From a virus (lineage: Duplodnaviria; Heunggongvirae; Uroviricota; Caudoviricetes): a stretch of DNA of 64,000 bases. The notes under the pieces were generated by a model. That model worked only from the letters and a program-made list of their open reading frames with translations. It was not told the origin of the DNA and made no database searches. How positions within the stretch are numbered: position 1 is the stretch's first letter; the number at the start of each line of letters is the position of its first letter. The stretch lies in IMG/VR virus record IMGVR_UViG_2703718815_000003; one strand, 5' to 3'. Below, one piece after another: positions 13,040-13,886 of the stretch. The position numbers were made by a program, and so were the translations under genes.

Positions 13040-13566
13040 CGTGCTGCCCCCTCTTTGGTGAAAATGCCTGCTGCAATGCTGTTTATGATGCTGTCAGTGC
13101 ATGGAGTAGAAAGCTGGGCATCTCCAGCAATTTTCATGACCTCAACATCCGCATATCGAATACCGAGGTGTATCAGACCGGCTATACCTGACTTAAGTCG
13201 AACATTTTCCATAAACAGATCTTTTTCCCGCTGTTTAGCGCCTTCCAACTCCATCGACAATTTTTCCAACTGCTCTTTATGCTTCTTGTATTCCTGATAC
13301 GCGTGCCAAGACTGACCTTTGCGCACACTATCAGTGATATCAGCAACCTGCTCTGGTGTTAGCGTGGTCAGTGGCTGTGCTGGAAAAATCATCACTTGCC
13401 CGGCATCCCAATCAAAACCCGCCTGAATTGACTGAACCTCAACTGATGGTGTTGAACCGATGCGACCAGGCGAATGAACAACGATCGTTACATCCATATC
13501 GCGACGATGGCTGTGGTTGTTGGACAAAATACGATTCACCAACTCAGAAAATTTGGAAAATTTCAT
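13036..13566 (-). CDS. hypothetical protein (176 aa)
   Basis: Track ORF trimmed to ATG ([10 protein letters not shown]...) with GGAGAG RBS and ATGA overlap with upstream gene. Confidence 0.5.
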
Positions 13567-13886
13567 GCTGATCCCTCTTTCTCTCCCCGGATAATTCTGT
13601 TGCACACATCCACACACTCGTCGCAGATGAAAACGGCGTCCCCAGCAATTAACTTTTTGACGGCGTACTGGGATTTGTTGCAGAAGCTGCAACAAAGTGT
13701 TCGCCTGACTGATAAGGATGGAGCGCCAGATGTCAGCCGCTCCATATCGTTCTTGCGACGCAATATCACACGGCTGAACTCAACCAGTTTCTCCGGGGAT
13801 ATATCCTCCTCCGTAGCAAGCGCCTCTAATCGTTCGAGTATGTGGAAGGCTTTTTCCTGGGTAATTGCAGAATGCGATGTGGTCAT
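13563..13886 (-). CDS. small protein with C-terminal ClpX-type C4 zinc-binding domain
   Basis: Trimmed to ATG after AAGGAGAG; C-terminus [38 protein letters not shown] closely matches ClpX N-terminal ZBD; no AAA+ module. Confidence 0.6.

What the first reader, a model, noticed from the sequence alone, without database searches (positions are those of the whole stretch)
13563..13886. Stand-alone ClpX zinc-binding-domain homologue in an operon of unknown genes
A 107-aa protein whose last about 40 residues ([38 protein letters not shown]) closely match the N-terminal C4 zinc-binding domain of ClpX but lacks any AAA+ module. The ClpX ZBD is the docking site for adaptors and some substrates, so an isolated copy could act as a decoy or competitor modulating host ClpXP. 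It is translationally coupled within an eight-gene operon (11198-16165) of otherwise uncharacterised proteins.
Basis: partly seen in the sequence, partly recalled or inferred. Interest (0 to 1): 0.65.

Follow-up and report, generated by a model that had tools for sequence, protein, structure and literature searches.

The report
Phage copy of ClpX docking domain
A temperate E. coli phage-plasmid encodes a small protein that joins a family-specific helical domain to a close copy of the zinc-binding docking domain of the host unfoldase ClpX, but has no motor; it probably competes for proteins that dock on ClpX, though this has not been tested.

Summary
A 107-aa ORF on the minus strand (13563-13886) ends in a true ClpX-type zinc-binding domain (ZBD): Pfam PF06689 57 bits against a 27-bit cutoff, about 70% identity to E. 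coli ClpX ZBD, model rmsd 0.5 Å, and no AAA+ module. The similarity is specific to ClpX, not a generic zinc ribbon. The window is an SSU5-like E. coli phage-plasmid. RefSeq already names the gene "ClpX C4-type zinc finger protein" and PHROGs lists it as family 6797, function unknown. I found no functional study.

It is under stronger purifying selection (dN/dS 0.27) than the ZBD (0.58). The family is confined to Escherichia/Salmonella temperate phages of four types. The main subfamily has changed the ClpX adaptor-docking loop (AGPS to AG[D/E]x) but keeps the hydrophobic pocket (F16/I46).

The array holds ten ORFs, not eight. A HumD (pre-cleaved UmuD') gene, a class of ZBD-dependent ClpXP substrate, lies 800 bp downstream.

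My best reading is a competitor or anti-adaptor that shields ZBD-dependent clients (confidence 0.4). Rivals are a subunit mimic that docks on ClpX and a ClpX-independent interaction module. Interest is moderate.

The parts
13563..13886 (-). CDS of the 107-aa ZBD-only protein (PHROG 6797; RefSeq 'ClpX C4-type zinc finger protein')
   Evidence: ORF and translation. PHROG 6797 full-length match, E=1.1e-58. RefSeq annotation of a 98.9%-identical plasmid.
13893..13898 (-). Shine-Dalgarno AAGGAG, inside the end of the upstream Ead/Ea22 gene and 6 nt before the ATG. It is part of a conserved junction (...GIRIKGE* + ATG).
   Evidence: Sequence. The same junction peptide ends unrelated proteins in other phages.
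13728..13865 (-). N-terminal family-specific two-helix domain (residues 8-53; helices 10-26 and 31-52)
   Evidence: AF2 model, pLDDT about 80. Invariant residues E11 K12 R19 E21 E26 E27 R43 R44 D47 L51. dN/dS 0.27. An exhaustive HMMER search finds it only in this family.
13698..13727 (-). Variable, low-confidence linker (residues 54-63)
   Evidence: pLDDT below 50 at residues 57-60. dN/dS about 1.26. Variable columns in the alignment.
13581..13697 (-). ClpX-type C4 zinc-binding domain (residues 64-102). Zn ligands are C66 (13689-13691), C69 (13680-13682), C88 (13623-13625) and C91 (13614-13616).
   Evidence: Pfam PF06689, 57.4 bits. PDB ClpX ZBD E~1e-14. Foldseek rmsd 0.5 Å. Cysteines invariant in 27 family members. 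Coordinates.
13888..14490 (-). Upstream Ead/Ea22-like gene (200 aa), translationally coupled. This is the usual upstream neighbour of the family.
   Evidence: PF13935 E=1.8e-32. An Ead/Ea22-like gene lies upstream in most related loci.
13036..13566 (-). Downstream gene (176 aa; PHROG 6026/368, Ead/Ea22-related) whose start overlaps the ZBD gene's stop (ATGA). A frequent but not obligate partner.
   Evidence: The same family follows with a 4-nt overlap in 31 of 38 loci. That family is far wider than the ZBD family, for example in Klebsiella.
10007..10396 (-). HumD, a pre-processed UmuD'-like protein. It is a candidate client of a ZBD competitor; the link is circumstantial and it is not part of the operon.
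   Evidence: Aligns to UmuD' from its first residue and to UmuD from G25, E=7e-23. 92% identical to P1 HumD. UmuD' is listed among substrates that bind the ClpX N-domain (PMC8808172).

Best explanation
The gene encodes a small protein with two modules, carried by temperate enterobacterial phages and phage-plasmids. Its C-terminal module is a faithful copy of the host ClpX zinc-binding domain. That domain is the dimeric platform on which adaptors (SspB, RssB, the UmuD arm) and some substrates (lambda O-type initiators, MuA, UmuD', FtsZ) must dock before ClpXP degrades them.

The protein has no ATPase, so it cannot unfold anything. I infer that it forms a ZBD dimer that binds such clients in trans and keeps them off ClpX. 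It would then act as a selective competitor or anti-adaptor that stabilises ZBD-dependent clients while leaving pore-recognised (ssrA-type) degradation intact. The conserved N-terminal helical hairpin, joined by a flexible linker, most likely supplies a second binding or dimerisation surface that sets which client is captured.

Shown: the domain identity, its ClpX specificity, purifying selection on both modules, and spread across four phage types.

Inferred: dimerisation, client binding, and the effect on ClpXP.
For: - ClpX-specific ZBD by sequence and by modelled fold, 68-71% identical to the host's own ZBD.
- Zn ligands are invariant. The core hydrophobics and the F16/I46 side pocket used by TF, lambda O, SspB and RssB are retained (PMC7804408).
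- Isolated E. coli ZBD in trans inhibits RssB/sigmaS degradation by ClpXP in vitro (PMC7226468).
- The ZBD is dispensable for ssrA substrates but essential for lambda O and RssB/sigmaS (PMC7226468, PMC7804408).
- The gene is maintained under purifying selection: N-terminal domain 0.27, ZBD 0.58, linker about 1.3.
- It occurs in SSU5-like, P1-like (D6), P2-like (P88) and lambdoid elements, in 220 of 5426 complete E. coli genomes.
- ZBD-only ORFs recur in unrelated phages: Caulobacter Cr30 and Pseudomonas PP9W2. This argues that an isolated ZBD is useful to phages.
- The same replicon carries HumD, a UmuD' homologue, and UmuD' is an N-domain-dependent ClpXP substrate (PMC8808172).
Against: - There is no experimental or co-variation evidence of any interaction.
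- The main subfamily, including this window, has changed the adaptor-docking loop AGPS to AG[D/E]x and altered two acidic surface positions. It may not bind SspB-type tails as ClpX does (PMC7647994).
- A pure decoy would not need the strongly conserved N-terminal domain.
- In vitro inhibition by free ZBD required 5-20 µM, a large excess over 0.6 µM ClpXP (PMC7226468). Cellular levels would have to be high, or the N-terminal domain would have to raise affinity.
- HumD does not co-occur with the gene in the P2-like or lambdoid contexts examined.
- No client is identified.
Confidence: 0.4

Rival explanations
1. Subunit mimic that docks on ClpX. The phage ZBD pairs with a ClpX ZBD monomer in place of a second ClpX ZBD, forming a heterodimer. 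This plants the N-terminal helical domain on top of the ClpX ring. There it acts either as a new adaptor that delivers a phage-chosen substrate or as a poison that disrupts the trimer-of-dimers platform.
For: - Helix positions V40, C43, N44 and I47 and the hairpin hydrophobics are the same as in E. coli ClpX. Both ClpX and CsfB dimerise through the C-terminal helix and hairpins (PMC5890618), so hetero-pairing is sterically plausible.
- The conserved N-terminal domain and flexible linker fit an adaptor-like architecture.
- The changed adaptor-docking loop would make sense if the ZBD serves as an anchor rather than a client trap.
Against: - The ClpX ZBD dimer is constitutive and each ClpX subunit has a tethered partner at high local concentration, so exchange with a free monomer is disfavoured (established knowledge; not tested here).
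- Dimer-interface residues were inferred, not read from coordinates.
- No multimer model could be run.
Confidence: 0.2
2. ClpX-independent use of the fold. The dimeric treble clef is only a dimerisation and protein-binding module, and the protein regulates some other target, such as a sigma or transcription factor or another early phage protein like Ead/Ea22. CsfB uses a ClpX-like fold this way to inhibit sigma factors.
For: - CsfB is a ClpX-NTD-like dimer that acts as an anti-sigma factor (PMC5890618).
- zf-C4_ClpX is an accessory domain of cyanobacterial sigma factors (PMC11119718).
- The gene sits almost always among Ead/Ea22-like genes.
- ZBD surface positions vary within the family, with dN/dS 0.58.
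Against: - CsfB shares only about 20% identity with ClpX (PMC5890618). This ZBD is about 70% identical to the host ClpX ZBD and the P88-type subfamily is closer still. That is hard to explain without selection for ClpX-like surfaces.
- The flanking partner genes are not conserved across subfamilies.
Confidence: 0.2
3. Decaying fragment of a captured clpX gene, or an annotation artefact with no function.
For: Many apparent stand-alone ZBD proteins in metagenomes are split clpX genes in tig-clpP-clpX-lon loci.
Against: - This gene is not next to clpP or an AAA+ remnant.
- It has its own SD and start, invariant Zn ligands and a non-ClpX N-terminal domain under purifying selection.
- It occurs in four phage lineages at 51-100% identity.
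- It shows no nucleotide-level similarity to host clpX.
Confidence: 0.03
4. The N-terminal domain is a BAG-like nucleotide-exchange module that links DnaK to a ClpX-type domain.
For: The exhaustive search hit a eukaryote-like protein with six BAG domains at E=6.4e-7, aligned to BAG helices 2-3.
Against: - The score is summed over five near-identical repeats, so the repeats are not independent evidence.
- Pfam BAG does not match the N-terminal domain at E<=10.
- The family profile finds no BAG chain among PDB sequences at E<=10.
- hhalign probability is 24%.
- Foldseek returns no BAG structure.
Confidence: 0.02

Closest known systems
[quoted passage not shown]
   Same: C4 treble-clef with identical Cys spacing and 68-71% identity. 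The modelled fold superposes at 0.5 Å. The hydrophobic pocket residues F16 and I46 and the core are kept.
   Different: It is not followed by an AAA+ module, sits at the C-terminus of its protein, and is preceded by an unrelated helical domain. In this subfamily the adaptor-docking loop AGPS is AG[D/E]x, and positions 23 and 45 lose their acidic residues.
Recombinant ClpX ZBD added in trans in biochemical assays
   Same: A ZBD without the motor. In vitro it competes for RssB and blocks sigmaS degradation (PMC7226468). From my own recollection of Wojtyra et al. 2003, not checked here, it also blocks lambda O and MuA but not ssrA substrates.
   Different: That is a laboratory fragment. This is a naturally encoded phage gene under selection, with an extra conserved domain.
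Anti-adaptors IraD/IraM/IraP of E. coli
   Same: The proposed outcome is the same: keeping an adaptor-bound client away from ClpXP. The ZBD and IraD are proposed to share a docking site on RssB (PMC7226468).
   Different: There is no sequence or fold relationship, and the mechanism here would be mimicry of the protease's own docking domain. RssB binding was not tested.
Phage-encoded modulators of host AAA+ proteases (T4 PinA and T7 Gp4.5 against Lon, lambda CIII against FtsH, lambda RexB against Clp proteases; from my own knowledge)
   Same: Small accessory phage proteins that would alter host regulated proteolysis.
   Different: No homology. None of them, to my knowledge, is a copy of a domain of the protease itself.
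CsfB (Gin) anti-sigma factor of Bacillus subtilis
   Same: A small dimeric treble-clef protein whose fold is most like the ClpX N-domain, used as a stand-alone regulator (PMC5890618).
   Different: It shares only about 20% identity with ClpX and has different interface chemistry. It acts on sigma factors, not on ClpXP.
Other phage ZBD-only ORFs: Caulobacter phage Cr30 (L043:1522-1761) and the 65-aa 'Clp protease' of Pseudomonas phage PP9W2 (PHROG 12435-like)
   Same: A stand-alone ClpX-type ZBD encoded by a phage.
   Different: They lack the N-terminal helical domain, occur in lytic or unrelated phages, and were probably captured independently. They are also uncharacterised.

Membership tests
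ClpX C4 zinc-binding domain (Pfam PF06689) | Score above the curated Pfam gathering threshold | tested here: met
   57.4 bits against a cutoff of 27, E=1.3e-15, residues 65-100.
ClpX C4 zinc-binding domain (Pfam PF06689) | Four Zn-ligand cysteines, CxxC-18 residues-CxxC | tested here: met
   C66, C69, C88 and C91 align with ClpX C14, C17, C36 and C39. They are invariant in 27 family members.
ClpX C4 zinc-binding domain (Pfam PF06689) | Treble-clef fold (beta-hairpins plus a C-terminal helix) that superposes on solved ZBDs | tested here: met
   The AF2 model against 2DS5-2DS8 gives rmsd 0.5 Å over 38 residues, and only ClpX ZBDs score E<=1e-3. This rests on a prediction, not an experiment.
ClpX C4 zinc-binding domain (Pfam PF06689) | Hydrophobic side pocket (F16, I46) used by TF, lambda O, SspB and RssB | tested here: met
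   F68 is invariant. Position 98 is I or V in 90% of members (PMC7804408).
ClpX C4 zinc-binding domain (Pfam PF06689) | Prokaryotic adaptor-docking loop (A29-G30-P31-S32) | tested here: not met
   The window has A-G-D-A. P31 is D or E in 90% of the family. Only the P88-type subfamily keeps LIAGPSVY (loop defined in PMC7647994).
ClpX C4 zinc-binding domain (Pfam PF06689) | Homodimerisation, and binding of the SspB XB tail or other clients | not testable with these tools
   No multimer prediction or coordinates were available.
ClpX unfoldase (NCBIfam TIGR00382 / NF003745) | AAA+ ATPase module with pore loops and the ClpP-binding IGF loop | tested here: not met
   The protein is 107 aa. It scores 40-42 bits against cutoffs of 359-371, and only profile positions 4-48 match.
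PHROG 6797 (phage protein family, unknown function) | Full-length profile match | tested here: met
   E=1.1e-58, residues 1-106 against profile positions 1-106 of 107.
BAG domain (PF02179) | Match to the BAG profile or to BAG structures | tested here: not met
   No Pfam BAG hit at E<=10. No BAG chain in the PDB profile search. hhalign probability 24%.
Known anti-phage defence proteins (PADLOC) | Match to any PADLOC model | tested here: not met
   No hit for the ZBD protein. The Ead/Ea22 neighbour gives only weak coiled-coil matches to LmuB.
ClpXP anti-adaptors / protease inhibitors (functional class) | Binds an adaptor or substrate and slows its ClpXP-dependent degradation | not testable with these tools
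   This needs biochemistry. The only precedent is the isolated E. coli ZBD (PMC7226468).

The most novel reading that the evidence does not exclude
Temperate phages of enterobacteria have captured the substrate- and adaptor-docking domain of the host ClpX unfoldase and fused it to a new helical domain. The product rewires host regulated proteolysis by mimicking part of the protease itself. It would work either as a natural anti-adaptor that traps ZBD-dependent clients (for example RssB/sigmaS, UmuD/UmuD'-HumD, or replication initiators) or as a subunit mimic that plugs into the ClpX N-domain platform to deliver or block substrates. To my knowledge this would be the first viral regulator that works by copying the docking domain of a host AAA+ protease. 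The ZBD-only ORFs in Caulobacter and Pseudomonas phages would make it a recurrent strategy.
Probability: 0.45. Interest if true: 0.7.

Novelty: new variant of a known kind. Interest (0 to 1): 0.5.

Why it matters
ClpXP controls sigmaS, SOS mutagenesis (UmuD'), replication initiators, antitoxins and cell division. All of these matter to a prophage or phage-plasmid living in E. coli. A natural, selected ZBD in trans would have four consequences.
- It would be a new class of viral protease modulator that works by domain mimicry.
- It would offer a ready-made genetic tool to switch off only the adaptor- and N-domain-dependent branch of ClpXP.
- It would give a handle on which ZBD clients matter in vivo.
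- It could explain stress-tolerance or mutagenesis phenotypes conferred by widespread clinical phage-plasmids, since relatives of this element carry blaCTX-M-15.

If the protein proves to be ClpX-independent, it still shows that this fold is reused as a portable dimeric interaction module.

Tried and rejected
- **BAG-like N-terminal domain.** The lead came from a six-BAG protein in the exhaustive search. I rejected it after the Pfam, PDB-profile, hhalign and Foldseek tests. The score was inflated by repeats.
- **"Hundreds of stand-alone ZBD proteins" in metagenomes.** The two I sampled on long contigs are split clpX genes in tig-clpP-clpX-lon loci. A "Bacteriophage sp." hit is a bacterial clpPX locus. 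These cannot be counted as stand-alone ZBD proteins.
- **An obligate two-gene module with the downstream gene.** It is linked in 31 of 38 loci but absent in D6 and the P88-type phages. That gene's family is also much wider than the ZBD family.
- **Recent capture from host clpX.** There is no nucleotide-level match to clpX in 5426 E. coli genomes.
- **Wider taxonomic spread.** GTDB species representatives gave only one marginal, probably spurious hit. IMG/VR gave 36 loci, all close relatives.
- **Defence or anti-defence and NCBIfam annotation.** Nothing was found.
- **Literature.** Five searches found no study of phage ZBD-only proteins.
- **Papers not held.** The key structural papers (Thibault 2006, Baker & Sauer 2012) were unavailable. 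XB-contact and dimer-interface residues therefore could not be checked one by one.
- **Foldseek against afdb50** was unavailable.

Full report
**1. The observation**

The finding's coordinates hold an ORF on the minus strand, 13563-13886, encoding 107 aa:

[107 protein letters not shown]

- The ATG at 13886-13884 lies one base after the upstream gene's TGA (TGAgATG). An AAGGAG sits 6 nt upstream. The gene's own TGA overlaps the next gene's ATG as ATGA.
- A longer 121-aa reading from 13928 exists. That upstream ATG is missing in several homologous loci, whereas the MTTSH start is always present.
- Residues 65-100 match Pfam zf-C4_ClpX at E=1.3e-15, 57.4 bits against a 27-bit cutoff. No other zinc-finger family matches.
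- Against all PDB sequences only ClpX chains are found. The best is the E. coli ZBD at E~1e-14 over residues 62-102.
- An AlphaFold2 model (mean pLDDT 75.6) gives helices 10-26 and 31-52, a low-confidence linker, and a beta-hairpin plus helix domain at 64-105.
- The last domain superposes on the E. coli ZBD crystal structures at 0.5 Å over 38 residues with 71% identity. The next non-ClpX hit has E~0.8.
- The protein fails the ClpX equivalog models by a wide margin, 42 against 359 bits, because there is no AAA+ module.

The similarity is ClpX-specific, not generic.

**2. Corrections to the description**

- Between 11198 and 16165 there are ten co-oriented ORFs, not eight. The junctions are -1, [138-nt gap], -4, +1, -4, -4, -1, -4 and -4 nt.
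- The 138-nt gap (14943-15080) holds two hairpins. Downstream of the gap there are eight tightly coupled genes (14942 to 11198).
- Another hairpin follows the last stop, at 11156-11180.
- The neighbours are not entirely anonymous. The upstream gene is Ead/Ea22 (PF13935, E=1.8e-32) and one downstream gene has DUF551. All ten belong to PHROG families of unknown function.

**3. What replicon this is, and how common the gene is**

- The 6-kb region is 97-99% identical to roughly 107-kb IncFIB "plasmids" of E. coli and E. albertii. It also matches Escherichia phages CMS-2020a, PhiR41_1 and Cyrano, with partial matches to Salmonella phage SSU5. This makes it an SSU5-like phage-plasmid.
- RefSeq already calls the gene "ClpX C4-type zinc finger protein" (older records say "carboxylate--amine ligase"). 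PHROGs files it as family 6797, function unknown.
- Full-length relatives at 64-97% identity occur only in Escherichia and Salmonella. A 51%-identical subfamily occurs in P2-like phage P88 and the corresponding prophages, for example in UTI89.
- The family is found in four kinds of temperate element:
  - SSU5-like phage-plasmids.
  - The P1-like phage-plasmid D6.
  - P2-like P88, directly after the replication gene A, parM and a partition gene.
  - Lambdoid prophages, in their ea-type region.
- It is present in 220 of 5426 complete E. coli genomes, at 127 chromosomal and 106 plasmid places. There is no nucleotide-level match to host clpX.
- No convincing copy exists among GTDB species-representative genomes. 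IMG/VR holds 36 close relatives.

**4. Anatomy beyond the ZBD**

They are not.
- Residues 8-53 form a two-helix domain whose invariant residues (E11, K12, R19, E21, E26, E27, R43, R44, D47, L51) persist across both subfamilies.
- An exhaustive HMMER scan of 1.84 billion representatives with residues 1-60 found the domain only in this family, always with a ZBD or in truncated ORFs. The only other hits were two repeat proteins.
- Pooled pairwise dN/dS over 18 distinct coding sequences is 0.27 for the helical domain, about 1.26 for the 10-residue linker and 0.58 for the ZBD. The sample is small and the pairs are not independent.
- The architecture is thus two constrained modules joined by a free tether, and the family-specific module is the more constrained one.

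**5. How ClpX-like the ZBD is, residue by residue**

E. coli mature numbering plus 52 gives the phage numbering.
- The four cysteines and positions L12, S15, F16, K19, V24, L27, I28, G30, V33, I35, D37, E38, V40, C43 and I47 are kept.
[quoted passage not shown] TF needs this pocket, and it overlaps the lambda O, SspB and RssB binding region (PMC7804408). F68 is invariant and position 98 is I or V.
- The systematic departures in the main subfamily are P31 to D/E, S32 to D/A/N, E23 to A/T, and D45 to R/N/S/E.
- Residues 29-32 correspond to the "adaptor-docking loop". Its human equivalent, SSTR, is required for PDIP38 docking but not for peptide binding (PMC7647994).
- The P88-type subfamily keeps LIAGPSVY exactly as in E. 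coli ClpX.
- Caveat: the ClpX reference set was drawn from hits to the query and is biased.

**6. Context and partners**

- In the main subfamily the upstream gene is almost always Ead/Ea22-like.
- In 31 of 38 loci the same downstream family follows with an ATGA overlap. That linkage is absent in D6, in locus L016 and in the P2-like phages.
- The downstream family is far more widespread than the ZBD gene, for example in Klebsiella. The ZBD gene is therefore an optional module in a mosaic array, not half of an obligate pair.
- No PADLOC or NCBIfam family is hit.
- About 800 bp downstream, in the same orientation, 10007-10396 encodes HumD. This pre-cleaved UmuD' homologue aligns from UmuD G25 and is 92% identical to P1 HumD.
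- UmuD' is listed among proteins that bind the ClpX N-domain directly (PMC8808172). HumD is thus a candidate beneficiary, but the association does not hold in the P2-like and lambdoid contexts I inspected.

**7. Mechanism**

Established facts about the ZBD:
- It is a dimeric docking platform. It is dispensable for ssrA-type substrates and essential for RssB/sigmaS and lambda O (PMC7226468, PMC7804408).
- Free ZBD at 5-20 µM inhibits RssB-dependent sigmaS degradation by 0.6 µM ClpXP (PMC7226468).
- XB peptides bind isolated ZBD with nanomolar affinity (PMC12373786).

From these I infer as most likely (0.4) that the phage protein dimerises and competes in trans for one or more ZBD-dependent clients, with the helical domain adding affinity or specificity. 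It would spare those clients without shutting down ClpXP as a whole.

ssrA-like antitoxin degrons that trigger some defence systems are recognised by the ClpX pore rather than the ZBD (for example CmdA; bioRxiv 10.1101/2024.02.24.581848). A ZBD competitor would therefore not be a general anti-toxin-antitoxin device.

Rivals:
- A subunit mimic that heterodimerises with a ClpX ZBD and places the helical domain on the ring, as an adaptor or a poison (0.2).
- A ClpX-independent interaction module, as with CsfB and the cyanobacterial sigma-factor fusions (PMC5890618, PMC11119718) (0.2).
- A dead clpX fragment (0.03), contradicted by selection, spread and context.
- A BAG-like DnaK cofactor (0.02), rejected.

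**8. Comparison with what is known, and novelty**

- By domain membership this is a bona fide PF06689 ZBD and a member of PHROG 6797. It is not a ClpX.
- Its adaptor-docking loop differs from the ClpX consensus.
- Functionally the nearest things are the laboratory ZBD fragment, the Ira anti-adaptors, and phage inhibitors of Lon and FtsH. None of these is homologous or works by copying the protease's docking domain.
- Five literature searches found no work on phage ZBD-only proteins.
- Stand-alone ZBD ORFs also exist in Caulobacter phage Cr30, where the ORF is under-annotated, and as a 65-aa protein of Pseudomonas phage PP9W2 (compare PHROG 12435). This suggests recurrent capture.
- Many metagenomic "stand-alone" ZBDs are merely split clpX genes.

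**9. Verdict**

The gene is already annotated by domain, so the sighting itself is not new. The functional idea and the two-module architecture are.

I rate it a new variant of a known kind, with interest 0.5. The most novel reading not excluded is domain mimicry that rewires ClpXP, at about 0.45 probability and 0.7 interest if true.

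Noticed in passing
window 10007-10396 (-): Encodes HumD, a pre-processed UmuD' homologue. It starts at the residue equivalent to UmuD G25 and is 92% identical to phage P1 HumD. UmuD' is a ClpX N-domain-dependent ClpXP substrate, so it is a possible client of the ZBD protein. HumD-like genes are widespread in temperate phages (P1, P7, N15, phiKO2, HK140, HK639, BTP1).
   Followed up: partly
window 6678-8840 (-) and 8869-9969 (+): The phage-plasmid carries a full-length methionyl-tRNA synthetase (metG; tRNA-synt_1g E=5e-166, with a tRNA_bind C-terminal domain) and an ApbC/Mrp-type Fe-S carrier ATPase. 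RefSeq annotates both on related plasmids. These are unusual housekeeping cargo for a phage.
   Followed up: partly
window 13884-13908 (-); also the ends of unrelated genes in L004 and L005: The upstream gene ends in ...GIRIKGE* (ATTCGCATCAAAGGAGAGTGAGATG), a junction that contains the SD for the next gene. The same C-terminal peptide ends unrelated proteins in other phages: the downstream gene in NCCP15648, and the XF1762-family protein and its neighbour in the UTI89 prophage. It looks like a conserved linker that lets ea-region modules recombine in register.
   Followed up: partly
window 14943-15080 and 11156-11180: The 138-nt gap inside the gene array has two hairpins (14971-14986 and 15030-15050, the latter a 9-bp palindromic stem). 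A 9-bp GC-rich hairpin follows the last gene of the array. They may be an internal attenuator or processing site and a terminator. Neither has a clear U-tract on the minus strand.
   Followed up: no
L043:1522-1761 (Caulobacter phage Cr30, NC_025422 about 81470-81709): A 79-aa ORF (or a shorter version from an internal ATG) encodes a stand-alone ClpX-type ZBD ([32 protein letters not shown]...). RefSeq annotates only a 41-aa piece (gp170).
   Followed up: partly
L045:5001-6265 and L046:5001-5345 (metagenome contigs); L047 (MT838126 'Bacteriophage sp.'): Apparent stand-alone ZBD proteins on long contigs are the N-terminal pieces of frameshifted clpX genes in tig-clpP-clpX-lon loci. The 'phage' contig MT838126 is a bacterial tig-clpP-clpX fragment. 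Counts of ZBD-only proteins drawn from metagenome protein catalogues are inflated.
   Followed up: yes
window 13036-13566 (-): The downstream gene has a conserved N-terminal domain of about 95 aa (PHROG 6026) followed by a variable coiled-coil tail. Its family is abundant in Escherichia and Klebsiella prophages and is related to Ead/Ea22 (PHROG 368). The ZBD gene is embedded in an array of Ead/Ea22 paralogues of unknown function.
   Followed up: partly
window 16227-17912 (-): A 561-aa DUF4942 protein lies directly upstream of the array. Related records annotate it as a DNA modification methylase. Only the DUF4942 domain was confirmed here, and the C-terminal part was not examined.
   Followed up: no
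window 13888-14490 (-): The Ead/Ea22-like protein gives weak PADLOC matches to LmuB (E about 3e-4). This is most likely coiled-coil similarity rather than homology to the Lamassu SMC protein.
   Followed up: no
related plasmids (NZ_MW590712, NZ_CP095139 and others): Several close relatives of this phage-plasmid carry ISEcp1-blaCTX-M-15 inserted within the same 6-kb region. The accessory array thus sits in a hotspot for resistance-gene insertion in clinical E. coli.
   Followed up: no
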